NCBI GenBank assembly: GCA_963751455.1
Contig: CAVVUN010000001.1
Span: 608,001-672,000, forward strand
Reading direction: 5' to 3'
Origin: Nitrospirota bacterium
Lineage (GTDB): Bacteria > Nitrospirota > UBA9217
Length of the DNA: 64,000 bases
The notes beneath the pieces are model-generated. The model had not been told where the DNA came from and did no database searches. It saw only the letters and a program-made list of their open reading frames with translations. Of this stretch, positions 1 to 15,579 are shown in pieces (position 1 is the stretch's first letter; each line of letters begins with the position of its first letter). A program made the position numbers and the translations under genes.

Positions 1-252
1 ACCGAGCAAGTCGAAACAAAAGTTTTCGAACTCAACGTCTTTTAAAATTTCAAAATGTATACTTTTCATTTTTACCTACTCTTGGATTGTATCAATTTAA
101 CAGCCATAACCGCCTATTGCCCCCATGCCCATTTGCCTTTCGTGCGAAGGCGATGAACCTTGCAAAAACAGTCAAGGGCTTGTTCGGGTCTATTATTTAA
201 TGACTCTCCCTCTCTGATATAATGATCATATAACAAGAAGGAGGTAAGAAAA

Positions 253-513
253 ATGACGAGTGATAAAGATAAAAAATTGGTGACTCCAGAGGATTTATTG
301 CACGTTTCTGATGTGGCAACTTCTGGAATACTTGCCGTTGCATCGATTTTATCCCATATTGTTTGCATCCTTGCTGATCAATTGAGCCTCGATCGAAAAC
401 TCCTGATTCAAGAAATTAATCGACTTTATGCGCCGACAGATAAATCCGAAGTTTATCAAACAGCTTATAATAACGCTCGTCGACTGCTCTTGGAAAGTCT
501 TCAACAAGAATAA
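253..513 (+). CDS. hypothetical protein (86 aa), opposite orientation to the integron cassettes
   Basis: ORF preceded by the SD-like GAGGT (241-245); no recognisable family. Confidence 0.5.
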   Translation: MTSDKDKKLVTPEDLLHVSDVATSGILAVASILSHIVCILADQLSLDRKLLIQEINRLYAPTDKSEVYQTAYNNARRLLLESLQQE

Positions 514-689
514 CGGAATCTGCTCATAGACTTTTTTGGGTAGTTCTCCCGATAACTTCTTTCTCTCCGTGCTTGCCGCCTGCATAGATCACTCGGACAA
601 CGGTCGGCGTCAGGATTGCTTGGAGCATCACGTCGATGTCTCCGCCTCGCCGGCTCCACCTGCCTCCACATGTTTTTGCGCGCATTAAA

Positions 690-741
690 ATATAACGCGA
701 AGATGAGCCCCGTCCCGTGGGGCTCGATCTTCTGGTTGGAA
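690..741 (-). other. integron attC site (52 bp) closing the DUF6680-like cassette
   Basis: Minus strand: R'' TTCCAAC, 5 nt, L'' GATCGAGC, loop, L' GCTCATC, 5 nt, R' GTTATAT. It starts a few bases after the stop at 747, and R'' is complementary to the GTTGGAA that opens this cassette. Confidence 0.85.
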
Positions 742-746
742 GCACA

Positions 747-1358
747 TCAAGATACAGGAGAATTTGGCGCGTCAGGTGTAGCGGGGCCGCCTACTTGTGG
801 CAGTGACGTGGCAGCGTCGGGCTTGGTTGCTTGCCGAGGTGGTAACGCGATAGTAGCGGTTGGCAGGAATCTTTTATTTTGCAAGATTTCAAGCCAAAGT
901 TTTCTCGTTTGGTAATTATCTTTATCTGAATCATCGTAAGCGGAGGGATAGTATGACCCGGCTTTTATTTGGACCTTATCAAAATTATATCCAAGATTTT
1001 TTGACATCTCATACAGGAGGTCAACAAGTAATTCGGCCTTCCGGGTGCCCCACATGTTTTTTGGGTATTGTTCGTCGGCCAAATGATTCGTATATAGACG
1101 AGCTGCGGCAACGACAGATGATGATGCATCGGGGGGAGCTTGGAACTCTAACTCCACAAGATTCAGAGCTTCAACGTGCATTGCTGCTAGGGGTGCAGAC
1201 CGAGTGGCCATTAGAGTTCTAAAAATATGCACCTTTCGATCACGAGAATCTTTTCTGTGTCTCAAGGCTTCGGTAATACGCACAGCGATAATTGGGCCTA
1301 CGACGACAGCGCCGATCATGATTATATCGGTAATTTTAATTGTCCAATCCCAAGACAT
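747..1358 (-). CDS. DUF6680-like membrane-anchored protein, integron cassette 2
   Basis: N-terminal TM segment GAVVVGPIIAV followed by IFRTLMATR...HVEALNLVELEF; SD AAGGAG; bounded by attC sites. Confidence 0.75.
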   Translation of the reverse strand: MSWDWTIKITDIIMIGAVVVGPIIAVRITEALRHRKDSRDRKVHIFRTLMATRSAPLAAMHVEALNLVELEFQAPPDASSSVVAAARLYTNHLADEQYPKNMWGTRKAELLVDLLYEMSKNLGYNFDKVQIKAGSYYPSAYDDSDKDNYQTRKLWLEILQNKRFLPTATIALPPRQATKPDAATSLPQVGGPATPDAPNSPVS

Positions 1359-1425
1359 ATGCGATTCTCCTTTTCTTTTGACTTTGTGGCCCGCTGACCC
1401 GGGAGTCGAGCGTGTGGTTGGAAAT

Positions 1426-1481
1426 TTCCAACGACGAGTTCACATGCCGCGAAGCGGTCGGCGTGGAACGACAAGTTAGAT
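1426..1481 (-). other. integron attC site (56 bp) closing the ATPase-TIR cassette
   Basis: Minus strand: R'' ATCTAAC, 5 nt, L'' GTTCCACG, loop with CCGC-TTC-GCGG hairpin, L' TGTGAAC, 5 nt, R' GTTGGAA. R'' is complementary to GTTAGAT at 4394-4400. Confidence 0.88.
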
Positions 1482-2739
1482 GTTTTATGGTACGTTAAAT
1501 ACTCTCGATTCGTGCAACAAGTTTGTAAATAATTTCTTCCGTTACTTTGTTTGACAATTCCGCTGGAGGTATACCAGCCTGAGAAAAGTGTATTCCTACG
1601 ATATCTTTGGGGATTCCCGGAAAAGATGTTTGATCAAGGTAAATAGGAATAACCGCCGCCTCGGGAACGCGAGGTATAAAACATTCGCGTTCAAATGTTG
1701 GCCATATTTTTTCAAGATGATGGATGTCAAGCAGGCAAGCTATAAATCTGGACTTGTCACCGAATATTTCCAGGAAGGTTTTGTGCCAAGCTTGGCCCAA
1801 GTAATTTGCTTCAAATAGCTCATCAAAGAAAACGGAGAAATCGAGTGTTTCCAATTGGTCTTTTATCAATTTTGCTAAATTTCTATTTTCTCCCGCAAAT
1901 GAAATGGCAAAATCGAAATCAAAATCACGCCCACCCGTACGGAACCCACACCGTTTTCTGAGATCCTCCCAATTCAGATGTTTGACATAATAAAATAAGG
2001 CCGGGTCTTCTATTGCAAAGTGCTTGGTGGCCGGGTTGTAATAAAAATAACGTTCGCAAATGGGCTTAGAATCAATAAGTATGGAAAGCCTTTTTTCCTT
2101 TACGTTATTGATGCTGCCGCGAACATTCGGATTAGCATTTGCAAGTTCCGTGAGATCAACTATAGAACTCTCTTGCTCGCTCACGCACTTCAACAATTTA
2201 AGGTAGGGATCATTTGTAGATCGAAATCTATTGCCGCGGCAGAATTCGGTGACAGGTTCATTGTATGCGTGATCTAACCGGTCAGTTACCTTGCGCCTCA
2301 GCGTTGGAATGTCATAATTGAGACCGACTTTCGTGTCGCAGGTTTTAGTTATGTTGTTAATAAGGCAGATCGCTTGGCAGACTAATTGGGTTAACCAATA
2401 GTCACCTTTTGTTTCTTCGTAGATTGAATCATGATTGCTGATCTTGATGTTTAGCTTATTCTCGCCCTTCAAGATTAGTTCTTTTGTGGTTTCGATTGGT
2501 GCGGGTTTTATACGGTGAATTCCACATCGTTTTGATATGTCGTGAACAAGGTGAATTAACTCGCTGCCAACTTTATTTATTCCAATAATCACAATCTTTA
2601 AACGAGAGCCCTCTTCGTAATCCTCGGCAGCGACCTTGATCAGATTCGCAATTTTTTCTTGACGGTCATTGTCGAGGCGGTGAAAGTCGTCTATCACATA
2701 GCGCCCCTGTTCTGTTCCAGCGGCAATAGATAATATTTT

Positions 2740-4128
2740 GGTAGTGTAGAAAAGGAGAGACTTTGGACATGAAGTAACAACAAATTGCCCTCCATTTTAT
2801 GGATAATAGTTTTGGACGAAACTAACCATAAAACAGGAGGGCAATATGGGTGTTACCCCACAAAGGAAAGGTATCACCATCAGTTTTGATTGTCAATTTG
2901 AAGTGCATTTGAAGGACAGCTCTCTTTCATCAATACTCGCCGCCTTTGCCGAGCTTTTGCCGCAGATTTTGACGGACTTCATTCAGAAAGTGCTTGTAGG
3001 CTTTGGCGAGCATGTGATGGCTCTTAAGAAAAAGCCTTTTGCCTGCGGGTGCGGCAATGATCGGGAATTCACATGGAAGACGCGGCACGGGAAAAAGACT
3101 AAGATTCATGCCTTTTACCAATGGGTCTGGTTACAGCAGCTCCAGGTTGTTTGCAAACGCTGTGGGAGTAAGCTCTACATCACCCGAAAGCTGCTCGGAA
3201 TGAAGCCGAAAAAGCGAATAGCGGCAGAAATTTATCGAAAGCTTGGGCTTCTGGGTTCCTTGACAACCTTTCGTGTGGCGGAGAAGATCGGCAAGATGTT
3301 CGGCTGGGCCGTGGACAAGATGACGGTCTGGAGCGCTGTCCAAAAGACGGGGTCGGAAATAGAGTTCAAGGTTGATGAAAAGGAGCTTCCCCAGGGCGAG
3401 GCTGACGGGACCGGGATCGGCATCAAGGGAATCAAGAAGCGCGGGAAGGAATTGAAGGCGTTCATACAGTACAAGAAGGGTGGCGGCGTGCGGGTGGCGG
3501 GCCTTGATATCGGGAATTATAACGGGTCCTGGGACAACCTTTTCAAGAAGAGTCTCAAGGCTCTGGGGAGCTTCACCCGTCCGTTTTCCTTAATCACCGA
3601 CGGCGACACCTCCATCCTGGATGCTCTTAAGGGGAAGGTGAAGATAATTGTTCAGCGCTGCTTGTGGCATATTCCCTATCAAGCGAAGTATGTGTTGTGG
3701 CAGGACAAAGTGAAGCGTAAGAGCGAGGACTGGTTGTATGTGATCGTGGAGCTGATGGAAATCTGCGCGATACGGCCGTTTGTAGACGACAAGCAGACGA
3801 TAGCCGCGATGATCGCTTCGAAGAAGGCCCGGCTGGATGAACTGATAAAGCGGTGCGCTGAGAGAGAATATACTCACACAGCCGCTTATCTTGAAAATGC
3901 CCGCCCGGATATGTTTACGGCGATCAAGAAGAGATTAGACGGTAAGACCACGAGCAAGGTGGAGCGACTCATGCGCACGGTCAATATGCGGGTAAACGTG
4001 AGCAAGTGGACCGAGGCCGGAGCGCTGAATGTCATGAAAGTCCGGCTGGCTTATTACTATAACGGATTTGATGCATAATGCGCGTAAAATGGGGGGCTTT
4101 TGTCAGGTCTCCACTTGACAACGCTACC
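2740..4128 (+). mobile_element. ISH6-like insertion sequence, 1389 bp
   Basis: Imperfect terminal inverted repeats GGTAGTGTAGAAAAGGAGAGAC / GGTAGCGTTGTCAAGTGGAGAC; 8-bp target duplication AATATTTT at 2732-2739 and 4129-4136. Confidence 0.9.
2846..4078 (+). CDS. DDE transposase (ISH6 / Mutator-like)
   Basis: GEADGTG, LITDGD, QRCLWH and TTSKVERLMR motifs; SD GGAGG; lies inside the TIRs. Confidence 0.88.
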   Translation: MGVTPQRKGITISFDCQFEVHLKDSSLSSILAAFAELLPQILTDFIQKVLVGFGEHVMALKKKPFACGCGNDREFTWKTRHGKKTKIHAFYQWVWLQQLQVVCKRCGSKLYITRKLLGMKPKKRIAAEIYRKLGLLGSLTTFRVAEKIGKMFGWAVDKMTVWSAVQKTGSEIEFKVDEKELPQGEADGTGIGIKGIKKRGKELKAFIQYKKGGGVRVAGLDIGNYNGSWDNLFKKSLKALGSFTRPFSLITDGDTSILDALKGKVKIIVQRCLWHIPYQAKYVLWQDKVKRKSEDWLYVIVELMEICAIRPFVDDKQTIAAMIASKKARLDELIKRCAEREYTHTAAYLENARPDMFTAIKKRLDGKTTSKVERLMRTVNMRVNVSKWTEAGALNVMKVRLAYYYNGFDA

Positions 4129-4393
4129 AATATTTTGGGAATGTCTTTGGCTTTTCTTGCACTTAGATATACAAATGGAGCTCCAGAAATGTTTTCCTCA
4201 ATAATTCGACGAACCGTGGTTGTTTTCCCTGTGCCGGACTGTCCCTCAATAATTACGGGTTTTCCAGGGTTACGTATATCAACAAGTAACTCATTAAAAT
4301 TTGGAGGATTGACAAAAGTAAATGCGGGCACTCCTTCTGTTCGAAAGATTTCCTCAACCGGGTATATCATATTGCCTCCAATATCAATTTAAA

Positions 4394-4400
4394 ATCTAAC
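4394..4400 (-). other. probable attI crossover point (G/TTAGAT)
   Basis: GTTRRRY match 24 nt upstream of the cassette-1 start codon, complementary to the R'' of that cassette's attC, with no attC hairpin upstream of it, and lying between intI and the array. Confidence 0.7.
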
Positions 4401-4575
4401 CAGTGTTTGAAGGGACGGAAACCGTCCCGTGATTTACGAAAAACCGGTATTAGTCTTCGAGAAAATGCACATTCGATCAATAATGCGCACTTTTTTGCTG
4501 CCGTGGATGCGCCCAGTCTAATACCGGAATTCCGGTATTAGTTTGATGCATTTCTGCAACTTTTCATTAATCGCG

Positions 4576-4604
4576 AGTATATTTTATGCTTTCCGGCATG
4601 TCAA
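4576..4604 (-). promoter_or_regulatory. cassette promoter (Pc equivalent), sigma70 type
   Basis: TTGACA-17 nt-TATACT pointing into the cassette array. Confidence 0.8.
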
Positions 4605-4667
4605 GATAAAGTGTTGACTATTCAGGTTGGAATACTCGCAGCGATAATTTTCTCGAATAAGAAATCT

Positions 4668-4700
4668 GGATTGCCGCGTCGCTTTGCTCCTCGCAATGAC
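4668..4700. repeat. half copy of the GTCATTGCGAG-type palindromic repeat
   Basis: GGATTGCCGCGTCGCTTTGCTCCTCGCAATGAC matches one arm of the elements at 14746-14822 and 54356-54467. Confidence 0.7.
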
Positions 4701-4745
4701 GGCATAAAAAACAGAAACATTTTTAAAATTATTTTTGTTCTGCAC

Positions 4746-4774
4746 TTGACAAGTGAACATTTGTTCACTATACT
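4746..4774 (+). promoter_or_regulatory. intI promoter with a palindromic operator (LexA-box-like) in its spacer
   Basis: TTGACA (4746-4751)-17 nt-TATACT (4769-4774); the spacer holds GTGAACATTTGTTCAC (GAAC-N4-GTTC). Confidence 0.8.
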
Positions 4775-4826
4775 TTTGTTACCTCGTAAGGTTGAGATTT
4801 CTTAACGTTATGGAGCGCCGGCGGCC

Positions 4827-5402
4827 ATGCAACCTGTACCTAAAGATATTTTGGCTAAATTTGACGGACTTCTGAAACAGCGGAATGTCCCGCTGTTCTC
4901 CCGAGCCGGTTACCGAAAGTGGATGCTATACTTTCTCGACTTTCGCGCCAAATATCCGCTTCCTGACGCCAAAACGGATCAAGTGAAGTTGTTCGCCGAC
5001 AAGTTGCGGTCAAAGAATCAAACCGCCGCGCAAGTTGAGCAGGCAGCGGATGCGATTTCCTTGTTTTTCGCTTTACATCGCTGGGAAAAGAATGTGTCTT
5101 CATCGGCCACCTGGCAGATTGTGTCCCCGGCAAATGTGCCTCGGATAAAATACGATCGAGCTCCGGAAGCGGAATTGAAAAAGGAATTCAGCATGGTGTG
5201 CGAACCCCCGGCCTCTTCCATGCCGTACGCACCGCGGCTCAGAAGCGGTAAGCAATACGACGAATGGCGCTGTCTTCGAAAGACCGCGTCTTCGGCATGG
5301 GACAAGGTAATAGCGCTGCTCGCTGACGAGATCAAGATTCGGAGTTCAAAGTTCTTGATTCAAGAGGAAACTTTGCATATCTCCTGCCGGCTCTTTCCCT
5401 AA
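4827..5402 (+). pseudogene. intI: integron integrase, N-terminal part only (catalytic domain deleted)
   Basis: SAM-like N-terminal domain (YRKWMLYFLDF...QVEQAADAISLFF), then WDKVIALLADEIKIR, where similarity stops; no RHRHY residues; divergent from the attI/attC array. Confidence 0.75.
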
Positions 5403-5480
5403 TAACAGAATGGTGCAGAAATAATCCTTGACTCTTTACTACTTTTTATATATATACTTTTATATATTTGGAGGGTATCT

Positions 5481-6023
5481 ATGTCTGTGAAGTACGCCAT
5501 GCTCGGCATCCTTGCGGAAAAGGACCTGCACGGGTATGAACTCAAAAGCAGCTTTGACGAAAAGGTCGGTGAGTTCTGGAGCCTGAACTACGGGCAGATA
5601 TACACTACCCTCGACCGGCTGGAGAAGGAAGATCTCGTCACCTATGACCGGCAGACACAGGACAGGCGGCCGGACAGAAAGATCTACAGCATCACCCGGA
5701 AAGGCAGGAAGGAGCTTGACGAATGGCTTGCCACACCGGTCAACCGCGTGCGCGCCCTGAGGGACGAATTCTTCATTAAACTCGTGTTCATGGACAAGAA
5801 CAATCCCGCGCCTGTCCTTGATCTGATCGAAAAGCAGAAGACCCTCTATCTCAAACAAATGAACCGGCTCACTCACCAGAAAGTCGAATTAAAGAAAAAA
5901 CCCAAAGCCCCTGATGCGCTTACCACTGAACTGCTGATGGATGCCGGACTCTTTCACGCGGAAGCAGACATCAAGTGGCTGACGTTGTGCGAAGCGAAGA
6001 TCAAAGCAGCGATCAAAAAATAA
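5481..6023 (+). CDS. PadR-family transcriptional regulator (long, AphA-like subtype)
   Basis: LHGYEL...WSLNYGQIYTTLDRLEKE...RKIYSITRKGRKEL..W plus helical C-terminal domain; SD GGAGG. Confidence 0.92.
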   Translation: MSVKYAMLGILAEKDLHGYELKSSFDEKVGEFWSLNYGQIYTTLDRLEKEDLVTYDRQTQDRRPDRKIYSITRKGRKELDEWLATPVNRVRALRDEFFIKLVFMDKNNPAPVLDLIEKQKTLYLKQMNRLTHQKVELKKKPKAPDALTTELLMDAGLFHAEADIKWLTLCEAKIKAAIKK

Positions 6024-6085: not shown

Positions 6086-6808
6086 ATGATTGAGTTGAAG
6101 AATGCCAGCAAAAAATACCAGCAGGGAGCACGGGAAGTTCATGCGTTACGGGATATATCTCTCTTTATCAAGAAAGGCGAGTTCCTCTCCATCATGGGGC
6201 CGAGCGGTTCAGGCAAGAGCACGCTCCTGAATTTGATCGGCGGCCTCGATCAGCCCACATCCGGCCAAATATTTATCGACGACAAGCCGCTCCACGGCAT
6301 TTCGGACAACGAGCTGACGCTGATCCGCCGGAAGCGCGTCGGGTTCATCTTCCAGTTCTTCAACCTTCTCCCGGTCCTGACCGCGATCGAAAACGTGAGC
6401 CTTCCCCTGCTGCTCGGAGGCATCTCCCTCTCTGAGATCAAACCGAAGGCGGTTGCCCTGCTGGAGCAAGTAGGACTTGGCGCCAGAGGAGAGCATCGCC
6501 CTGAACAGCTCTCCGGAGGTGAAATGCAACGGGTCGCCATTGCCCGCGCGCTTGTCACCAACCCGGCTGTTCTCCTTGCTGATGAGCCGACCGGAAACCT
6601 CGATTCCCATACCAGTGAGGAAATATTCATGCTCCTCAAGTCCCTGAACGAACAGGGACAGACTATTGTGATGGTAACGCACGATCCCAAGGCCGCTGCC
6701 TATGGTTCGCGTATCATTACACTGAAAGACGGCGCCCTTTCGGAAGATATATCCATCGGAGGATCCCAGCATGACTCTTGTCAATCTGCTCCGTTATATC
6801 AGTCTTAA
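6086..6808 (+). CDS. ABC transporter ATP-binding protein (LolD/MacB type)
   Basis: GPSGSGKS, LSGGEMQRVAIARAL, LADEPTGNLD, VTHD. Confidence 0.95.
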   Translation: MIELKNASKKYQQGAREVHALRDISLFIKKGEFLSIMGPSGSGKSTLLNLIGGLDQPTSGQIFIDDKPLHGISDNELTLIRRKRVGFIFQFFNLLPVLTAIENVSLPLLLGGISLSEIKPKAVALLEQVGLGARGEHRPEQLSGGEMQRVAIARALVTNPAVLLADEPTGNLDSHTSEEIFMLLKSLNEQGQTIVMVTHDPKAAAYGSRIITLKDGALSEDISIGGSQHDSCQSAPLYQS

Positions 6809-9368
6809 GCGCCTGAAACTGCACAAAGCCCAGACCTTCATGTCCGTGTGCGGCATCGCGCTCGGCGTTTCCACCATCGTGTCCATCGGGATCGTGAGCG
6901 AGAGTGTCGTCCGCTCCTTCGAGGAATCGATCACAAAAATCGGAGGAAAGGCTGCCCTGCAGGTCCTCGGCCCCGAGTCGGGTTTTCCCGAGGAGATGCT
7001 GGACCGCGTCCAAACGGTCGCCGGCGTGGAGCATGCCGTTCCTGTCATCGAAGCAGAAGCACCTTTCGCAAATGCGAAAGAGCGCGCCCTCACGGTCCTG
7101 GGTGTGGATGTGCTTCAGGACAGCCACATGCGGGAGTACAGCGTCTCCGATGAAAGTGCAGATATCCCCGATCCCCTTCTGTTCCTGGCAAGACCCGACT
7201 CTCTGCTCATCACCCGGGAAATAGCGAAGCGCGAAGGTTTCCACATCGACCAGACAATAACATTATCGACCGTGCAGGGTCCGCGAACCCTTCGGATACG
7301 CGGTCTGATGAACCCTGAAGGACCGGCAAAGGCCCTTGCCGGCAACATCGCGATCATGGACCTCTATGCAGCGCAGCTTGCCTTCGGCAAGGAGGGACGC
7401 ATCGACCGCATCGATGTCAGCCTTGTCCGGGGAGAACAGGTGGAAGCGGTCCGTCAGCGCATCATTGCCGCGCTTCCCGAGGGATATACTGTCGAAACAG
7501 CTGCAGGCCGGACCAGGCAGTTCGATGTCGTGGTATCCAATTTCAGCAAGTTCATCAGCACCCTCGGCCTCGCGGCCCTTGTGGCCGGCATGTATCTTAT
7601 TTTCAACGCGGTATCGATCGCCGTGGTGCAGCGGAGGAAAGAGATCGGCATTCTGCGCGCCATGGGCGCCGGCCGCGGACTGATCACGAAACTCTTCCTG
7701 TCCGAGACCATGGTGATCGCACTGGTCGGCTCTTTCCTCGGTGTCTGCGCGGGAATATTTTTCGCCTGGGCATCTCTGAAACCGTTCAGCCGGAGCATGG
7801 AGCAGCTGTACCAATATACCTATGCCGGGTCGACGACGCTCAGTTACTCATGGCGCTATCCGCTGGCCGGGATCGTTATCGGGTTTGTTTCCGCCCTTCT
7901 CGCCTCCTTTTTCCCGGCTCGTTCCGCGGCCCGGATCGCGCCGATCTCCGCAATCCGTTCCCTGCCGCAGTCTGATGACGACCGGTCCGCAAGTTCCAGG
8001 GCGCTCATCGTTTCATTGTGCTGTCTTGCTCTCGCCGGCGTCATGGTCATCCTGTTCACCGTTCTGCACGCCCCGGGCAGGAACATCATATTCACGATCG
8101 TTTTCTGCGCGGAGTTGCTGCTCCTGCTCGGCCTTTCCCTGGCAATGCCGTCCGTTCTGCGCGTCTTCATGAGAGTGTTCCATCGCTTCGCGTCTCCGCG
8201 TCTCGGCGCCACGACCCGTCTTGCCGGGCTGAACATCCGGAAGAACATCGGACGGAACGCCGTGGCATCGGGAGCGGTCCTTCTCGGGCTTTCGCTCTTC
8301 ATCGCCATATCGAACATCATAGTTTCCCTGGAGTATACCATCGTCAACTGGATAAACGTCCAGACGTCATGCGACCTTCTTGTGACCATGGGCCATTCGA
8401 TCACCGGTATGTCGATGCGAAGCAAACCCATGCCCTCGGAGGTGAGGAAGGATATCGACAGCATACCCGGCGTGGCGCTCACTGACGTGTACCGAAGGAT
8501 ATTCATTCCCTTCAGGGACTCGCGGATCTTGCTGGAAAGTGTGGATGTGAGGAAAAGATTGGAGTACGCTTCCTTCATCGTGCTCCAAGGAGATCAAAAG
8601 CGCATCACGGACCTGCTGCCCGGCCAAAACAATGTGATCGTGAGCGAATGTCTGGCCGCCCGCCATGGCATGAGGCCCGGCGATGTCATATCTCTGCTGA
8701 CACCGGCCGGACCGGTGTCCTTCGGAATTGCGGCCGTTATCGCCGACTACAGCTATGACCAGGGCTCCGTGCTTATGGACACCAACACGTATAAACGCCT
8801 CTGGAATGACCGTTTGTCGGACGGGATCGCCGTAAAGATATCCGATAAGGATCAACTCCAGTCGATCCGGGCGGCCATCGTTGCCAAGCTGCAAGCGAGA
8901 GGCGATGTCTACGTGATCACCCTGGACGAATGGAACCGTGAAGTTCGATCCAGCATGGACCGGATCTACTCAAGCTTTCATGCGCTGAACGTGATGACGC
9001 TGTCCATCGCCTGCATCGGCATCATCATTACGCTCGTTGCATCGGTGCTTGAACGGACCAGGGAGATCGGGATCCTGCGCTCTCTCGGAGCCGTGAAACG
9101 CCAAATAAGCCGGATCGTGGTCATGGAATCAATGATCCTGGGTCTTGTGGGAGGTTTCGTGGGCATCGCAGGAGGCGTACTCCTCGGCTGGATGGCGGTC
9201 TACGGCATGGTGCGCGGCGAATCAGGCATGACCGTGCAATACATGATCGATTACCGGGCATTCCTCTGGGCAATCGTATTGTCCGGCGGGCTTTCGGCCC
9301 TGGCCGGGTTCTATCCGGCCCGGCGCGCGGCCAAGACGAATATTGTCGAAGCGTTGGCGTATGAATAA
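6771..9368 (+). CDS. FtsX/MacB-type ABC permease, internally duplicated, copy 1
   Basis: Two periplasmic+FtsX halves; QRRKEIGILRAMGA and ERTREIGILRSLGA; ends PARRAAKTNIVEALAYE. Confidence 0.93.
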   Translation: MTLVNLLRYISLKRLKLHKAQTFMSVCGIALGVSTIVSIGIVSESVVRSFEESITKIGGKAALQVLGPESGFPEEMLDRVQTVAGVEHAVPVIEAEAPFANAKERALTVLGVDVLQDSHMREYSVSDESADIPDPLLFLARPDSLLITREIAKREGFHIDQTITLSTVQGPRTLRIRGLMNPEGPAKALAGNIAIMDLYAAQLAFGKEGRIDRIDVSLVRGEQVEAVRQRIIAALPEGYTVETAAGRTRQFDVVVSNFSKFISTLGLAALVAGMYLIFNAVSIAVVQRRKEIGILRAMGAGRGLITKLFLSETMVIALVGSFLGVCAGIFFAWASLKPFSRSMEQLYQYTYAGSTTLSYSWRYPLAGIVIGFVSALLASFFPARSAARIAPISAIRSLPQSDDDRSASSRALIVSLCCLALAGVMVILFTVLHAPGRNIIFTIVFCAELLLLLGLSLAMPSVLRVFMRVFHRFASPRLGATTRLAGLNIRKNIGRNAVASGAVLLGLSLFIAISNIIVSLEYTIVNWINVQTSCDLLVTMGHSITGMSMRSKPMPSEVRKDIDSIPGVALTDVYRRIFIPFRDSRILLESVDVRKRLEYASFIVLQGDQKRITDLLPGQNNVIVSECLAARHGMRPGDVISLLTPAGPVSFGIAAVIADYSYDQGSVLMDTNTYKRLWNDRLSDGIAVKISDKDQLQSIRAAIVAKLQARGDVYVITLDEWNREVRSSMDRIYSSFHALNVMTLSIACIGIIITLVASVLERTREIGILRSLGAVKRQISRIVVMESMILGLVGGFVGIAGGVLLGWMAVYGMVRGESGMTVQYMIDYRAFLWAIVLSGGLSALAGFYPARRAAKTNIVEALAYE

Positions 9369-9400
9369 ATTTACCAGCAGATTGGACGTACGAGGTTTAC

Positions 9401-11998
9401 ATGAATCTTATCAACCTGCTCCGCTATATCAGTCTTAAACGCCTGAAACTGCACAAAGCCCAGACCTTCATGGCGATCTGCGGCATTTCCCTCGGCGTAT
9501 CCGCAATCGTTTCCATCGGGATCGTGAGTACCAGCGTTGTCCGCTCTTTTGAGGATGCGATCACGTCGATTGCCGGAAGGGCAAGCCTCCAGATAACGGG
9601 GGGGCAGTCGGGGTTTCCGGAAGCAATGCTCGAACGTGTACAGGCAGTTCCGGGCGTGGAATACGCTGTTCCCGTGATCGAGACCACGGCCAACCTTATC
9701 GGCGGCAAGAACCGATCGATCATGATCATTGGCGTGGATATGCTGCAGGATCACCAGATCCGGGACTACCGCGTCACGGATGACAACACCGAGATCCCGG
9801 ATCCCCTGATGTTCCTCGCAAAGCCTGACTCCATTCTGGTCAGCCGCGGCATGGCGGGTTTGAACAATATCGGTATGGACAAAACCATGGAGATCGAGAC
9901 GGTTCACGGAATCCGCTCACTTACCGTGCGGGGCCTCCTTGAGCCTGTCGGCCCGGCAAAAACCATGTCAGACAGCCTCGCAGTCATGGACATTTTCGCG
10001 GCCCAGATGGCATTCGGCAAGGAAGGACGCATCGACCGGATCGATGTCAGCATTCTGCGCAACGAAGACACGAATGCGGTCCGGAAACGGATACAGGCCG
10101 TGCTTCCCGAAGGCTACACTGTCGAATCGCCCGCTGTCCGTTCCAGCCAGATCGAAGCAACCATTTCCAATCTCAAGAGAAATATCAGCAGCATGGGCTT
10201 CGTCGCCATGTGCATGGGCATGTATCTCATCTATAACGCAGTTTCTATAACGGTCGTGCACCGGAGAAAAGAAATCGGCATCCTGCGGGCACTGGGAGCG
10301 ACCCGTGGACGGATCGTGAATCTATTCCTGATAGAAACCCTTATCCTGTCCGTTATCGGATCCGCGCTCGGCATCGGGTTCGGCATCCTCCTCGCTCACG
10401 GGTCGATGGAAGCGTTCGGACAGAACATCGCGGTTGCATATCAACTGAACAATCCGACCTCTGCTCCGCTCATTATCACTCCGGAGCACATTGTTACCGG
10501 GTTCATACTCGGCATACTGACCGGTATCCTGGCCGCACTGTTCCCTGCGTTTGCGGGCGCCCGGGTAACGCCGGTATCGGCCATCCGCTCGCTGCCTTTT
10601 TCCGAGGAGGAATTCATTTCAAAAAGAAAACTCCTCTTCCTGTCCTTCCTGCTGCTGTCAATAACCGCGGTGATGCTGCTCCTCTATGGTGCAATCAAAT
10701 TGAAGTCACCTGGATCCATTGCACTTTTTATCATGACCTCTGAATTTACCCTGATCTTCGGAGTGACCTTTGCCATCCCCTCGGTGCTCCGGAATTTCAT
10801 TTCACTGTTTCAGCGATTCATTGCTCCGCGATTGGGGGCGGTGAGCAGTCTCGCGGGACTGAATATCCGCAAGAACGTCAACCGGAATGCCGTTGCCGCG
10901 GGCGCGGTGTTTCTCGCCATAGGGCTTTTTATCTCCGTTTCGAGCATCGTCTTCTCAGTGCGCTGCTCCGTGATGCACTGGCTCGAAACAACGGCGAACA
11001 GCGATCTATTCGTTACCTCGGGCCACGCCTTCTCGGGCAGCGCCGGAAAGCACGTCCCCATGCCGCTTACAATGAGGAACGAGTTCGAGCAGATAGAAGG
11101 AGTGCGGTTCACTGACATGTACCGGCAGGTATTCATCCCCTTCAAGGATTCCCGCATTCTTCTTGAAAGCGTTGACGTGCGGCGCAGGCTGCAATACAGC
11201 TCCTTTATGGCGACAAAAGGCGATGCCGCCGACATAGGCAGGCTTCTGCCGGGCCGGGATAATATCGTTGTGAGCGAAAACCTCGCAGTCCGCCTCCGTA
11301 TCAAACCCGGTGATTCACTTGTCCTTACCACTCCCCAGGGTCCCGTCAGTTTCGGCGTGACAGCGGTCGTCGTGGATTACGGCTATGAATTCGGCGCTGT
11401 GCTTATGGACAATCTGACATACCAGAAGCACTGGCACGACGGACTGGCCGACATCATCACCGTGCTCGTGAAAGAGAAGCGTGATATTGACCTGGTCCGT
11501 GACGCTATTCAAAAACAACAAGGGAAACAGAAGCGGTTGTTTATCTTTTCGATGGAAGAATACAAGAAAGAAGGCCAAAAGCTGCTGGATCAGATATACG
11601 GCATTTTCCACGCAATGGACATTCTCACCCTCTCCATCGCCTGTATCGGCATCATTATCACCCTGCTCGCGTCGATACTTGAGCGGAGGCGCGAAATCGG
11701 CATCATCCGCTCGATCGGTGCATATAAGGGGCAGGTCTCGAGGGTCGTCGTACTCGAATCCGTGCTGCTGGGCTTTACAGGATGCCTCCTCGGCATTATG
11801 TGCGGCAGTGTACTGGGCTGGATGGGCGTAGACGGTTTTATAAACGGCGAGGCCGGGATGACCGTGCCGTACCGCATCGACTACGCCGCGATTCTCAAGG
11901 CAAGCGTACTCACGCTCGTCTTTTCAACCCTGGCCGGGCTTTATCCAGCGAGACAGGCGGCAAAGACCAATATCGTCGAGGCCCTGGCATACGAATGA
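9401..11998 (+). CDS. FtsX/MacB-type ABC permease, copy 2
   Basis: Same architecture; first ~25 codons almost identical to copy 1. Confidence 0.93.
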   Translation: MNLINLLRYISLKRLKLHKAQTFMAICGISLGVSAIVSIGIVSTSVVRSFEDAITSIAGRASLQITGGQSGFPEAMLERVQAVPGVEYAVPVIETTANLIGGKNRSIMIIGVDMLQDHQIRDYRVTDDNTEIPDPLMFLAKPDSILVSRGMAGLNNIGMDKTMEIETVHGIRSLTVRGLLEPVGPAKTMSDSLAVMDIFAAQMAFGKEGRIDRIDVSILRNEDTNAVRKRIQAVLPEGYTVESPAVRSSQIEATISNLKRNISSMGFVAMCMGMYLIYNAVSITVVHRRKEIGILRALGATRGRIVNLFLIETLILSVIGSALGIGFGILLAHGSMEAFGQNIAVAYQLNNPTSAPLIITPEHIVTGFILGILTGILAALFPAFAGARVTPVSAIRSLPFSEEEFISKRKLLFLSFLLLSITAVMLLLYGAIKLKSPGSIALFIMTSEFTLIFGVTFAIPSVLRNFISLFQRFIAPRLGAVSSLAGLNIRKNVNRNAVAAGAVFLAIGLFISVSSIVFSVRCSVMHWLETTANSDLFVTSGHAFSGSAGKHVPMPLTMRNEFEQIEGVRFTDMYRQVFIPFKDSRILLESVDVRRRLQYSSFMATKGDAADIGRLLPGRDNIVVSENLAVRLRIKPGDSLVLTTPQGPVSFGVTAVVVDYGYEFGAVLMDNLTYQKHWHDGLADIITVLVKEKRDIDLVRDAIQKQQGKQKRLFIFSMEEYKKEGQKLLDQIYGIFHAMDILTLSIACIGIIITLLASILERRREIGIIRSIGAYKGQVSRVVVLESVLLGFTGCLLGIMCGSVLGWMGVDGFINGEAGMTVPYRIDYAAILKASVLTLVFSTLAGLYPARQAAKTNIVEALAYE

Positions 11999-12062
11999 CA
12001 AACTGAAATATGGTTATTGAACGAAGACGCTGTCAAACCTCTACCTGCGTGTAGGAGATCCT

Positions 12063-14654
12063 ATGACCCTCACCAACCTGCTTCGCCACATCAGCCTCAA
12101 GCACGTCAAGCACCAGAAGACCCGGACGTTCATGGGCATCCTCGGCATCACACTAGGTGTTGCGTCGATGGTCTCGATCGACATCGTCAACAATAGCGTG
12201 CTCTTTTCATTCGAGGATTCGATTAACCGCATAACAGGCCGTGCGGCCCTTGAAATTACAGGAGCGGAGACCGGATTCCCGGAACAGGTGCTCGATCGCG
12301 TTCAGAATATTGCGGGAGTCGAGTTTGCCGTGCCGGTTATAGAAACGACGGCCCGTCTCGCCGACGGAAAAGAACGCCCCCTCCTCATCCTGGGCGTCGA
12401 TGCTCTCCAGGACCACCAGGTTCGCAGTTACAGCCTTCGGGACGAAAGCGCCGATATCCCCGACCCCCTTCTCTTTCTGGCAAAACCGGATTCCATCCTT
12501 TTGACCTCGGCAATGGCGGAACAGGAAGGGGTGAAACTGGACCAGCAGATCCGCCTGCAAACTGTTCAGGGAATAAAAACGTTGACGGTCCGCGGCCTGC
12601 TGAATCCCGAAGGGCTTGCCAAGGCAGCGGGGGGCGATATCGCTGTTATGGACGTCTATGCCGCCCAGCTCGCCTTCGGCAAAAAAGGCAAGTTCGACAG
12701 GATCGACGTCAGCTTCCTTGCCGGCGAGACCTTCGATGTCATGAAGGAACGCATACAAGCCGTGCTAACTGAAGGCTACCGCGTTGACACGCCCGCAGTC
12801 CGGACAAAACAGGTAGAGATCATGACGGCCAGATTTAGAAAAAGCATAAGCCTGGTAAGTCTCCTCGCCGTCTTCGTCGGCATGTATCTCATTTATAATG
12901 CCGTATCCATTACCGTGGTCCAGCGGAGACGCGAGATAGGCATTCTCCGCGCCTTGGGCGCCACCCGCAGACAGATCATCGGTCTTTTTCTCGGAGAAGC
13001 GTTTGCCGTGTCCGCTGTCGGGTCCCTTTTGGGAATCGGACTCGGTTTCCTCTTCGCTAAATTGTCCGTGGGAGCGGTCGCCCAGAACATCAGCGATCTG
13101 TACATGCGGGCGTCGGTTACCGATCTGAACATGTCCTCAAGAGACTTGCTCGTCGATGCCGGAATCGGCATTCTTGCAAGCATGATTGCGGCTGTTTTTC
13201 CCTCGCGGACCGCCGCGCGGATCACGCCCATCTCGGCTATACGGACCTTGCCCTATAGCGGCGACGGAGCGTTTTTCGGCAAAACGATAAAGATCGTCTC
13301 GGGGCTCTGCGTTCTTCTATCGGCAATAGTCCTCGTGCTGTACTATGCGTCAGACCTTACCTCACCGATAAGGAATACCACGACGATGTTCCTATCGATG
13401 GTCCTGCTCCTGCTCGGAGTATCACTCGCAACTCCCCTGTTCCTTCGATATTTTCTCTCATTCGTTCATCGGTTTCTGACATCGATACCCGGCGGTGCGG
13501 GCAGACTTGCGGGTCTGAACCTTCAAAAAAACATCGTGAGAAATTCGGTGGCCGTAGCCGCTATCTTTTACAGCATCGCCCTGGCCATCAGCACCGCTAG
13601 CCTGGTCTACAGCACCCGCGCGTCGCTGATGGACTATGTTGATTCCATCATTCGCGCCGATCTTCTCGTGAGTTCCGGTCATCCTCTTGCCACGGGCGGG
13701 ATGCCGAACATTCCCATGCCGGGCGAAATGAAAAAAGATCTGGAAAAAGTCCCCGGCGTACGCTTCGTGGACACGTTTCGGAAAACATATCTGAATTACC
13801 AGGACCGCCAAATTCTTCTGGAGATCGTCGACTTTGCCCTCAGAATGGAATACTGCCCGTTGCTGATCGTCGAGGGCAACAGGGAGAAGATACGCCGTCT
13901 GTTGCCGAATCAGGATTACATCACGGTGAACGAACATTTTGCAAAACAGTTTCGGACGAAACCCGGCGATGTCATTGTACTCCCGACCCCGGATGGACCG
14001 AAGCGGTTCGGTGTTGCGGCGATCGTTGTCTCCTATTCCGGCGACGCAGGAATCGTATGGATTGACAATGCCACGTACCAGCGCCACTGGAAAGACAGCC
14101 TTATCGATACATTCGAGGTGGTTGTGAAACCTGGAACGGATATATCGGCGCTCCGACAGGCCATCCTGGACCGTTTTGGGAAGGAACGAAAGCTTTTTGT
14201 GCTGCCTGTTCCCGAAGCAAAAGCGGAAATCGAGAAAATGCTCGACCAGATGTTCGTCATGAACAACGCCGTGAATATTATCACGCTGATAATCGCCGGC
14301 ATCGGCGTTATCGTGACACTCCTGGCATCGGTCCTTGAACGAACGAGAGAGATCGGCATTCTTCGCTCCATCGGCATGAAAAAGAGCCAGGTCTCCGGCC
14401 TCGTGCTGCTCGAATCGATGATGCTCGGCGCTGCCGGTGGAGTTCTCGGCACCGCAACCGGCGCGCTGATCGGCTGGATCAGTCTTGAGGGTTTCATGCG
14501 CGTTGACTTCGGCGGGAACATACAATATCATATCCATTACCCATCAGTTGCATGGGCAATGGCGCTCGCAATCGGGCTAGCGGCGCTGGCCGGGCTCTAT
14601 CCGGCTTGGCGGGCGGCAAAAACCAATATCACGGAGGCGCTGTCGTATGAATAA
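12063..14654 (+). CDS. FtsX/MacB-type ABC permease, copy 3
   Basis: Same architecture; shared IPDPLLFLAKPDS and AAKTNITEALSYE motifs. Confidence 0.93.
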   Translation: MTLTNLLRHISLKHVKHQKTRTFMGILGITLGVASMVSIDIVNNSVLFSFEDSINRITGRAALEITGAETGFPEQVLDRVQNIAGVEFAVPVIETTARLADGKERPLLILGVDALQDHQVRSYSLRDESADIPDPLLFLAKPDSILLTSAMAEQEGVKLDQQIRLQTVQGIKTLTVRGLLNPEGLAKAAGGDIAVMDVYAAQLAFGKKGKFDRIDVSFLAGETFDVMKERIQAVLTEGYRVDTPAVRTKQVEIMTARFRKSISLVSLLAVFVGMYLIYNAVSITVVQRRREIGILRALGATRRQIIGLFLGEAFAVSAVGSLLGIGLGFLFAKLSVGAVAQNISDLYMRASVTDLNMSSRDLLVDAGIGILASMIAAVFPSRTAARITPISAIRTLPYSGDGAFFGKTIKIVSGLCVLLSAIVLVLYYASDLTSPIRNTTTMFLSMVLLLLGVSLATPLFLRYFLSFVHRFLTSIPGGAGRLAGLNLQKNIVRNSVAVAAIFYSIALAISTASLVYSTRASLMDYVDSIIRADLLVSSGHPLATGGMPNIPMPGEMKKDLEKVPGVRFVDTFRKTYLNYQDRQILLEIVDFALRMEYCPLLIVEGNREKIRRLLPNQDYITVNEHFAKQFRTKPGDVIVLPTPDGPKRFGVAAIVVSYSGDAGIVWIDNATYQRHWKDSLIDTFEVVVKPGTDISALRQAILDRFGKERKLFVLPVPEAKAEIEKMLDQMFVMNNAVNIITLIIAGIGVIVTLLASVLERTREIGILRSIGMKKSQVSGLVLLESMMLGAAGGVLGTATGALIGWISLEGFMRVDFGGNIQYHIHYPSVAWAMALAIGLAALAGLYPAWRAAKTNITEALSYE

Positions 14655-15579
14655 GGAAACTGTAGTGCGAAGTGCGACCCCACCCAGCCTCCCCTTGCTA
14701 AGGGGAGGTGTGGAGAGGCGCGGAGAGCGGACCAGGTATAGGCTCGTCATTGCGAGGAGCAGCGCGACGAAGCAATCTCATCGTTTTCTAAAAACAAGAT
14801 TCCTCGCTGCGCTCGGAATGACAGCTATTATGCTTTTCTTAAATTATGTTTTACCGTCTGCTGCTCACGCGATCTCGGGTCGTGAAGTCTATGAAAAAGT
14901 CCACGAGGTGAGCTTGAAGGCACTGGACCATAAGATCGAAATGACGATGGTCCTGTTCGACAAGGGCGGCGGCAAACGCAGCCGCTCGCTTACGTCCTAC
15001 AGCAAAAAAGCCGACCCCGAAGCGTATAAGGCGCTCGCTGTCTTCAAGAGCCCTCCGGACCTGAAAAACGTCGGGTTCCTGGTTCATGCGCACACGTTTT
15101 CCAATCGCGAGCTCTGGGCCTACTTTCCCGAATACAAACGTGTTCGGCGCATCGCAACGACTTCGCAGGACGATTCGTTCTTCGGGTCCGATCTTTCGTA
15201 CGATGATTTCACCGGCCCGCCGAATCTGGACGATTTCAAGTTCAGCATTCTTAGAGAAGAGGAGCTGGACGGAAAGCCGTGCTACGTCGTCGAAGTGACG
15301 CCCAAGGTTCGCAGGAAATATAGTAAATATATTGCGTGGGTGGCAAAGGACCTTTGGATTCAGCTCAAAATCGATTATTACCAGGACAAGGACATCTACC
15401 GCTCGGGTGTATTCAAGGATGTCAGAGTCATAGACCGGATCCCCACGCCGTTCCAGAGTGAAATGGAGAATAAAAAGACCGGACACAAGACGGAGCTTAC
15501 GCTCGAAAACGTACAGTACAATACACATTTTCCTGATGATCTGTTCACCCAGCGGTCGCTGGAGAGGGCAGGAAAGTAA
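14647..15579 (+). CDS. LolA-like periplasmic carrier (outer-membrane lipoprotein-sorting family); start may be 14647 or ~14818
   Basis: Signal-peptide-like segment ending SAAHA; F.SPPDLKNVGFL, WAYFPEYKRVRRI, FFGSDLSYDD, PDDLFTQRSLER. Confidence 0.85.
   Translation: MNKETVVRSATPPSLPLLRGGVERRGERTRYRLVIARSSATKQSHRFLKTRFLAALGMTAIMLFLNYVLPSAAHAISGREVYEKVHEVSLKALDHKIEMTMVLFDKGGGKRSRSLTSYSKKADPEAYKALAVFKSPPDLKNVGFLVHAHTFSNRELWAYFPEYKRVRRIATTSQDDSFFGSDLSYDDFTGPPNLDDFKFSILREEELDGKPCYVVEVTPKVRRKYSKYIAWVAKDLWIQLKIDYYQDKDIYRSGVFKDVRVIDRIPTPFQSEMENKKTGHKTELTLENVQYNTHFPDDLFTQRSLERAGK
14746..14822. repeat. palindromic repeat (GTCATTGCGAGGAGC...GCTCGGAATGAC), with a second hairpin repeat at 14688-14708
   Basis: Long imperfect inverted repeat with relatives at 4668-4700 and 54356-54467; CCTCCCCTT-GCT-AAGGGGAGG hairpin just upstream. 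Confidence 0.8.

What the first reader, a model, noticed from the sequence alone, without database searches (positions are those of the whole stretch)
1495..4370. ATPase-TIR cassette: candidate single-gene anti-phage system switched off by an IS
Seen: removing the IS restores a 492-aa protein with an N-terminal P-loop ATPase (GQSGTGKT, YVIDD), a helical middle region and a C-terminal TIR domain retaining Glu at the catalytic position (WPTFE). Known: TIR domains act as NAD+-cleaving effectors or signal makers in Thoeris, CBASS, Pycsar, short argonaute and Avs/NLR-like systems, and integron cassettes are a known source of defence genes. STAND-type defence proteins usually carry the effector N-terminally with a C-terminal repeat sensor; this one has the reverse order and no repeat sensor. 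Inferred: a compact, possibly undescribed defence protein in the most highly expressed cassette position, whose cost may have favoured its inactivation.
Basis: partly seen in the sequence, partly recalled or inferred. Interest (0 to 1): 0.8.

Follow-up and report, generated by a model that had tools for sequence, protein, structure and literature searches.

The report
IS-broken sensorless STAND-TIR integron cassette
An insertion sequence has split the first gene of an integron; intact relatives encode a compact ATPase switch with a TIR enzyme where a repeat sensor usually sits, an unnamed family that likely fights phages by destroying NAD+.

Summary
A 1,389-bp ISH6-like element with an 8-bp target duplication, one of 8 identical copies in the genome, splits a 492-codon frame; intact relatives are also 492 aa. 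The gene is the first cassette of an integron whose integrase is truncated. The predicted fold is a minimal STAND core (ATPase, helical lid, winged-helix-like domain) followed directly by TIR; Walker A/B and the TIR glutamate are invariant in 112 of 112 close relatives. No PADLOC or NCBIfam family names it and ten paper searches found no description. Neighbours are moderately enriched in defence genes (27 of 256 versus 4 of 144), Thoeris genes lie within 3 kb in 8 of 69 loci, and there is no fixed partner. The ATPase-then-TIR order is not unique (AAA_35-TIR proteins; TIR-core-TIR relatives). An Aquabacterium copy is broken by a different IS, which mildly favours a cost, but neutral insertion into AT-rich DNA is not excluded. 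Verdict: new variant of a known kind, probably a one-gene NAD+-depleting defence; trigger unknown, nothing tested at the bench.

The parts
4129..4370 (-). 5' piece of the ATPase-TIR gene (codons 1-81), Walker A at 4221-4244
1495..2731 (-). 3' piece of the gene (codons 82-492 and stop): Walker B, lid, winged-helix-like domain, TIR; holds a 400-aa open frame from GTG 2697
2686..2700 (-). Walker B (YVIDD, residues 92-96)
1930..2316 (-). End of helical lid, conserved basic linker (R246, R249, R251) and predicted winged-helix-like domain (residues 220-348)
1504..1926 (-). TIR_2 domain (residues 350-490); WxxxE glutamate E428 at 1690-1692
2740..4128 (+). ISH6-like insertion sequence, 1,389 bp, 8 identical copies in the genome; transposase ORF 2846-4078 (410 aa)
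   Evidence: NF041731, 191 bits, below the 240 cut-off
2732..2739 (.). Left copy of the 8-bp target duplication AATATTTT
4129..4136 (.). Right copy of the target duplication
1426..1481 (-). attC site of this cassette (56 bp; R'' ATCTAAC, R' GTTGGAA)
4394..4400 (-). Core recombination site GTTAGAT at the cassette start; attI inferred because no attC lies between it and the integrase gene
4576..4604 (-). Pc-like promoter pointing into the array (TTGACA-17-TATACT, 11 of 12; consensus match only)
4746..4774 (+). Divergent promoter-like site for the integrase gene, overlapping the palindrome AGTGAACATTTGTTCACT (present before 3 of 5 integrase copies; resembles a LexA box, label recalled)
4827..5402 (+). 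Truncated integron-type integrase (191 aa, N-terminal SAM-like part only)
747..1358 (-). Next cassette gene, DUF6680, with attC at 741-690

Best explanation
The locus is an IS-split integron cassette whose intact form is a 492-aa protein with a predicted minimal STAND core and a C-terminal TIR domain, and it likely works alone as an anti-phage switch that would oligomerise on infection and drain NAD+. Shown: the IS, the cassette borders, the 492-aa family, the invariant ATPase and TIR residues, the lack of a fixed partner. Predicted: the three-part core (ATPase, lid, winged-helix-like domain). Inferred: an ADP-bound off state; a trigger read by the core itself, since there is no repeat sensor, with the invariant basic linker and winged helix as the best candidate surface (for a phage protein, nucleic acid or a neighbouring subunit); ATP-driven assembly that brings the TIR domains together; NAD+ loss and abortive infection. 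In this genome the gene is inferred to be dead because Walker A is separated from the rest.
For: Frame and family length. Walker A K49/T50, Walker B D95/D96, N133, R149, W424 and E428 each in 112 of 112 close relatives; E428 invariant in 26 of 26 distant ones. Model of intact relative P0006: pLDDT 82.5; best matches over residues 1-345 are archaeal Walker-type ATPases and Cdc6/Orc1 (2qen Z 15.7, rmsd 5.5, 282 aligned; 2qby Z 14.1; 2fna Z 14.1; Avs5 9nc9 Z 11.7) and TIR domains over 350-491 (4w8h Z 12.5). The same core is fused in relatives to a second TIR, calcineurin-like phosphoesterase, PNP, SIR2, caspase, EAD1, DUF4062 and HD-CE domains, a conflict-system repertoire. No neighbour family recurs in more than 7 of 79 independent loci. 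Specific PADLOC hits in 27 of 256 near neighbours versus 4 of 144 control ORFs, p = 0.006. The host array also carries Mrr-type nuclease and HEPN_AbiV cassettes. No full-length type I ThsA in the 8 host genomes searched. Precedent: Avs5 filaments form through NBD-WHD contacts and switch on an NADase (PMC11897194, passages).
Against: No experiment. The enrichment is modest: 32 of 256 versus 8 of 144 with all hits (p = 0.036), and 17 of 69 loci versus 2 of 20 regions at locus level (p = 0.22); I removed generic hits by judgement after seeing them, neighbours within a locus are not independent, and the control genomes come from the host's phylum, not from the homologs' hosts. 52 of 69 loci show no specific defence neighbour within 3 kb, though many contigs are short. 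The winged-helix call is weak on its own (best Z 5.8, no Foldseek hit at E <= 0.001), and the domain is not net basic (14 K+R, 13 D+E). The TIR is the least confident part of the model (pLDDT under 50 at 425-434). In one survey 12 of 32 tested E. coli TIR systems protected (PMC11350192). Repeated adjacency to Thoeris genes fits the signalling rival too.
Confidence: 0.55

Rival explanations
1. The protein is a STAND-gated signalling TIR: on sensing phage it would make a cADPR-type or ADPR-derived signal that activates a Thoeris effector, serving as an extra sensor for Thoeris operons, much as plant TIR-NLRs signal to helper proteins.
For: Thoeris-type genes within 3 kb in 8 of 69 loci (L021, L055, L061, L068, L074, L090, L093, L096), 6 of them on the same strand and one overlapping the stop by 4 nt (L068); 0 of 20 control regions. 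These loci are scattered over a quick tree. The Aquabacterium copy also has ThsB about 290 bp upstream.
Against: 61 of 69 loci show no Thoeris gene within 3 kb. The neighbouring effectors differ (SIR2-SLOG, SLOG-patatin, caspase, PDC-M50A) and are reported or expected to read different signals. No full ThsA in 8 host genomes, and ThsB in only 1 of 8 (several genomes may be incomplete, and only type I ThsA was searched). By sequence the TIR is nearest to the NAD-hydrolases AbTIR and TcpB.
Confidence: 0.2
2. It is a conflict gene aimed at something other than lytic phage (plasmids, other mobile elements, or a stress cue), or a stand-alone toxic/addiction-like cassette that stabilises the array.
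For: Very patchy: no full-length match in 60 relatives of the host (one partial, E 4.7e-17) and none in 400 genomes drawn from the order of Aquabacterium. Found on plasmids (9 of 72,556 records cover at least 80%) and near integrases. The fold resembles DNA-binding Cdc6/Orc1 and TnsC.
Against: The neighbours are anti-phage systems (Thoeris, DRT, SIR2-HerA, Uzume, RM). No antitoxin-like partner recurs.
Confidence: 0.15
3. It is a housekeeping or regulatory ATPase with a TIR used as an interaction domain, and its place in defence islands is passive.
For: Locus-level enrichment is not significant. Defence and non-defence STAND clades are interspersed (PMC13581612).
Against: Invariant TIR glutamate, cross-phylum patchiness, swapping of effector-type domains on the same core, cassette location.
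Confidence: 0.1

Closest known systems
Avs / AVAST antiviral STANDs, especially Avs5 (SIR2-nSTAND3-sensor; PMC12931631, PMC11897194, PMC13581612)
   Same: Predicted NBD-helical domain-WHD core (Avs5 9nc9 Z 11.7 over residues 2-336; Avs5 and Avs3 head the weak list for the WH domain), weak nSTAND3 Pfam similarity below cut-off, an NAD-consuming enzyme domain, single gene.
   Different: No N-terminal effector, no C-terminal repeat sensor; the TIR follows the WHD. 492 aa in all. The 90 Avs families were defined on C-terminal regions of 400 aa or more, which excludes this protein.
Archaeal Walker-type ATPases PAB2304 (2qen) and SSO1545 (2fna), and Cdc6/Orc1
   Same: Best structural matches over residues 1-345: N-terminal ATPase, lid, winged helix, no repeats.
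   Different: 13-15% identity; the matched chains (350-366 aa) cover no TIR. Their placement in the MNS clade of STANDs is recalled, not tested.
AAA_35 (PF14516)-TIR proteins
   Same: ATPase domain with TIR_2 in proteins of about 500-690 aa; feature score 0.90-0.91 in the ESM Atlas.
   Different: This family has no AAA_35 Pfam match and forms its own cluster (878 members); domain order in those clusters is read from their automatic names only.
Thoeris (ThsB sensor TIR plus effector; types I-XI, bioRxiv 10.64898/2025.12.03.692087)
   Same: TIR with catalytic glutamate; repeated physical adjacency (8 of 69 loci).
   Different: TIR_2 rather than ThsB_TIR profile, fused to an ATPase core, no obligate effector gene.
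E. coli TIR-I to TIR-IX systems (Wang et al. 2024, PMC11350192)
   Same: TIR-dependent anti-phage genes, some single-gene; one system contains an AAA domain; IS insertions were seen to abolish TIR-V.
   Different: By the text, the single-gene systems are TIR-TPR (II) or short TIR-only (V, VI, IX) and the rest are two-gene; no DNA match to this gene in 5,426 E. coli genomes. The domain figures were not visible.
PADLOC candidate PDC-S59
   Same: Weak match over the ATPase-lid region (E about 1e-9 to 1e-11, 33-41 bits).
   Different: Partial, low score, does not cover the TIR; a distant relative of the core, not the same family.

Membership tests
STAND NTPase superfamily | P-loop NTPase with Walker A and B followed by a helical domain and a winged-helix domain | tested here: met
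   Motifs in 112 of 112; model matches STAND/Cdc6-like chains over residues 1-345. The WH alone gives only Z 5.8, but the list is dominated by winged helices.
STAND NTPase superfamily | GxP motif in the helical domain after the NTPase (motif recalled) | tested here: inconclusive
   G190 is invariant but the motif reads GDY in 112 of 112 close relatives and GSF/GSL in distant ones; a proline appears in 1 of 26.
STAND NTPase superfamily | Placement in a named clade (nSTAND3, nSTAND5, MNS) | tested here: inconclusive
   nSTAND3 19.7 bits for the window piece against a 27.2 cut-off; over the cut-off in a few relatives; nSTAND5 always below. No tree against reference STANDs was built.
Avs / bacterial NLR-like receptors | N-terminal effector domain | tested here: not met
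   The close family starts directly with the ATPase core.
Avs / bacterial NLR-like receptors | C-terminal repeat sensor | tested here: not met
   Residues 350-490 are TIR and the protein ends there.
Avs / bacterial NLR-like receptors | Ligand-induced oligomerisation | not testable with these tools
TIR NADase | TIR fold with WxxxE glutamate | tested here: met
   PF13676 at the cut-off (28 bits); alignment with AbTIR and TcpB; W424 and E428 in 112 of 112.
TIR NADase | NAD+ cleavage and its product | not testable with these tools
   Needs an assay.
Thoeris | TIR gene in an operon with a signal-activated effector | tested here: not met
   Not met as a rule: Thoeris genes within 3 kb in 8 of 69 loci, none in the window's locus.
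Integron gene cassette | Gene between a GTT core site and an attC whose R'' box complements it | tested here: met
   GTTAGAT at 4400-4394 and ATCTAAC at 1481-1475; hairpin with paired L boxes.
Functional integron | Intact adjacent integrase | tested here: not met
   191-aa N-terminal fragment only.
ISH6 family IS | ISH6 transposase above the curated cut-off | tested here: inconclusive
   NF041731 full-length match, E 2e-56, 191 bits against 240; 8-bp duplications in 8 of 8 copies.
Named defence system in PADLOC 2.0 or NCBIfam 20 | Full-length match to a system model | tested here: not met
   Only weak partial hits for 4 intact homologs in PADLOC and 2 in NCBIfam. DefenseFinder was not available.

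The most novel reading that the evidence does not exclude
A sensorless STAND receptor: the bare ATPase-lid-winged-helix core detects infection itself and gates a C-terminal TIR that makes a signal for Thoeris effectors, a bacterial counterpart of plant TIR-NLR signalling, costly enough when placed in the expressed cassette slot that hosts repeatedly lose it to IS insertion.
Probability: 0.15. Interest if true: 0.85.

Novelty: new variant of a known kind. Interest (0 to 1): 0.52.

Why it matters
Immune STANDs are described as effector-NTPase-sensor, and the largest survey set aside proteins whose C-terminal part is under 400 aa. A conserved 492-aa family with no repeat sensor and the enzyme in the sensor slot makes two questions directly testable with one short gene: how a STAND stays off and senses infection without a sensor, and whether a STAND-gated TIR can feed Thoeris. 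Two independent IS breaks in cassette copies also give a handle on the cost of expressing defence cassettes. The parts (STAND core, TIR NADase, defence cassettes in integrons) are all known, which limits the surprise.

Tried and rejected
Named system: PADLOC and NCBIfam gave only weak partial hits. Ten paper searches (one search timed out) found no description of the family; 'ATPase-TIR' and four similar phrases gave 0 papers; most subscription journals are not searched. Supplements of PMC13581612: four motifs, two accessions and even the word TIR gave 0 hits in 7 files, so that search is uninformative, and its two large files (MOESM3, MOESM4) could not be read; the core may be one of its 589 clades. 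The main supplement and figures of PMC11350192 were not readable. One integron-defence paper was not held. Obligate partner: rejected. Integron-specific family: rejected; an exact core/R'' test was not above control (2 of 59 versus 5 of 354). My first attC scans missed the known sites and were replaced; the final rule found 5 of the host's sites behind 8 genes tested and missed the Aquabacterium and Leptospira sites, so 4 of 69 is a lower bound. Phage-borne: 1 relative in IMG/VR, only a TIR-only hit in 50,697 phage records. Rfam: nothing in 1-6000. L004 looked like a second break but is an inverted duplicate, probably misassembly. Decay after insertion: not seen, 2 of 212 conserved columns differ, against a median of 1 in intact members. 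No integrase found within 8 kb upstream of the Aquabacterium piece. The tree is the quick version only, 78 of 79 loci. Earlier-findings look-ups by sequence and place returned nothing.

Full report
Observation. The element at window 2740-4128 is 1,389 bp long, has terminal inverted repeats and is flanked by an 8-bp duplication (AATATTTT). It has 8 identical copies in the 5.7-Mb genome, each with its own AT-rich 8-bp duplication. Its 410-aa transposase matches the ISH6 model over its full length but below the cut-off. Without it, 4370-1495 (-) reads 492 codons with no stop. The larger piece finds 873 relatives; the best 120 listed are mostly 492 aa and 63-82% identical, apart from the window's own fragment. 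The two pieces depart from only 2 of 212 highly conserved columns (median 1 in intact members), so the break is recent and is the only lesion seen.

Integron. The gene starts 24 nt after GTTAGAT (4400-4394) and is followed by a 56-bp attC (1481-1426) whose R'' box is the exact complement; the next cassette (DUF6680) obeys the same rule. More attC sites follow in the contig beyond the window start, and two of those genes match Mrr_cat and HEPN_AbiV. A TTGACA-17-TATACT site points into the array about 200 nt before the start codon, and a second one points to the integrase gene (6 promoter-like sites against 2.7 in shuffles, so these are consensus matches only). The integrase is a 191-aa fragment. 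First position is therefore supported, and first-position cassettes are the expressed ones in V. cholerae (10.1101/2024.07.02.601686, passages), but expression here was not measured.

Protein. An AlphaFold2 model of intact relative P0006 (pLDDT 82.5) matches AAA+ clamp loaders and RuvB by Foldseek and, in the wide search, archaeal Walker-type ATPases, Cdc6/Orc1, TnsC and Avs5 over residues 1-345 and TIR domains over 350-491. Residues 220-348 folded alone (pLDDT 94.5) give only weak matches (best Z 5.8, rmsd 3.4, 87 aligned, to Avs5), but most are winged helices of STANDs, ORC and MarR-type proteins. In 112 full-length close relatives G43, K49, T50, D95, D96, N133, R149 (candidate arginine finger, inferred), R246, R249, R251, K292, S358, W424 and E428 are invariant; the linker (0.90) and winged-helix region (0.87) are more conserved than the ATPase core (0.82) or TIR (0.77). 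The basic linker persists in most distant ATPase-TIR forms and is lost in the forms with a second TIR type. A profile search found 264 proteins at E <= 1e-30 among 1.84 billion representatives. Pfam on 65 of the 150 listed shows the same core with TIR at both ends, with a C-terminal calcineurin-like phosphoesterase, or behind PNP, SIR2, caspase, EAD1, DUF4062, HD-CE, HTH or receiver domains. The ESM Atlas puts the family in an 878-member cluster with an automatic nSTAND3 name and lists AAA_35-TIR clusters as look-alikes, so the domain order is uncommon but not unique.

Context. 92 loci collapsed to 79 independent ones; 69 had an ORF of 90 aa or more within 3 kb. No partner is fixed: the commonest neighbour family, ThsB-like TIR, is in 7. 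PADLOC at E <= 1e-10 hit 32 of 256 near ORFs against 8 of 144 control ORFs from 20 arbitrary 8-kb regions of four genomes (p = 0.036). After dropping generic hits by judgement (5 and 4), 27 of 256 against 4 of 144 (p = 0.006); by locus, 17 of 69 against 2 of 20 (p = 0.22). Neighbours include Thoeris, SIR2-HerA, DRT, type I RM and Uzume; 31 hand-picked further ORFs added type IIG RM, Druantia-like and AbiU hits and are not in the counts. Thoeris-type genes lie within 3 kb in 8 of 69 loci, scattered over a quick tree. Against an obligate link, 8 host genomes had no full-length type I ThsA and 1 had ThsB. The family is rare and patchy: no full-length match in 60 relatives of the host or in 400 genomes from the order of Aquabacterium, yet the window's piece is 82% identical to the Aquabacterium copy. 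attC-like sites follow the gene in 4 of 69 loci (7 of 372 other ORFs, 1 of 345 shuffles), and by eye in Aquabacterium and Leptospira.

Why broken. In Aquabacterium commune the same cassette is split at about codon 100 across two contig ends by a different element: ends 16 of 20 identical, 4-bp CTAG duplication, 6 copies of one end in that genome, IS5-like by recall. Two independent breaks among 8 genomes with a close copy (the host and the 7) hint at a cost. But the host's IS prefers AT-rich targets, the gene is 41% GC in a 51% genome, and 2 of the other 7 copies also sit in long frames. Cost is possible, not shown.

Literature seen. PMC11350192: parts 1-2 of 7, passages, primer file, first part of an accession file, no figures. 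10.64898/2025.12.03.692087: one section and passages; it discarded stand-alone TIR proteins. PMC13581612: part 1 of 13, one methods section, passages and an uninformative supplement search; sensors under 400 aa were excluded. Passages only: PMC8195603, PMC12931631, PMC11897194, PMC12839542, 10.64898/2026.03.17.712381, 10.64898/2026.08.25.746987, 10.1101/2024.07.02.601686. None described this family. The unread clade tables of PMC13581612 and DefenseFinder models may hold it.

Mechanism and verdict. The most likely reading (0.55) is a one-gene switch: an off state held within the core, a trigger read by the core, ATP-driven assembly, TIR clustering and NAD+ loss. All steps after the anatomy are inferred from Avs5 and TIR NADases. 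Signalling to Thoeris effectors (0.2) is the main rival and the more exciting one. It works like an Avs protein but is not a member, lacking both the N-terminal effector and the repeat sensor. New variant of a known kind; interest 0.52.

Noticed in passing
L001:15475-20000 (contig just before window position 1) and window 1-1425: The array continues with at least five more attC-like sites; cassettes include an Mrr_cat nuclease, a HEPN_AbiV gene and four unknown ORFs; two attC sites are near-identical 59-mers.
   Followed up: partly
window 1385-1425: A second R''-like box (TTCCAAC) follows the attC after one base, with a GC-rich stretch but no R' box: possibly a decayed attC or empty cassette.
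   Followed up: no
G000 C1:553975, C2:447005, C3:358105, C12:96810 and window 4827: Five integron-type integrase copies translate to 437, 451, 195, 61 and 191 aa; none seems to reach a normal C-terminus (judged by recalled motifs). Three share the palindrome AGTGAACATTTGTTCACT between -35 and -10.
   Followed up: partly
window 4669-4701 and 14745-14777: 33-bp REP-like repeat between the integrase and the array; 5 copies found in the genome.
   Followed up: partly
window 1495-2697 (-): The 3' remnant is still a 400-aa open frame from GTG with an AGGGG stretch 6 nt upstream and an intact TIR; whether it is made is unknown.
   Followed up: no
window 6771-14654; L001:9505-12096: Three tandem paralogous 863-865-aa ABC permease genes behind a PadR-like regulator and an ABC ATPase (labels from recall), with a fourth paralog 10 kb before the window.
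   Followed up: no
L095:114-4660 (Gloeothece plasmid pP742404): Operon of patatin phospholipase, HMUDK_hel, MazG, ThsB-like TIR and Nmad2 about 3 kb from a distant homolog: a nucleotide-modification-linked candidate defence system.
   Followed up: partly
L093:11820-17912 (Pantoea plasmid): TIR-dense island after the homolog: ThsB, a SLOG-patatin fusion, three more TIR ORFs and a macro-domain fragment.
   Followed up: partly
P0179-P0266: An unnamed larger family with the same core: TIR-core-TIR, TIR-core-calcineurin-like phosphoesterase, and fusions to PNP, SIR2, caspase, EAD1, a type I methyltransferase or a second STAND.
   Followed up: partly
L092 (IMG/VR contig): The only viral-collection homolog lies next to an ArdA anti-restriction gene and a DNA ligase gene.
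   Followed up: no
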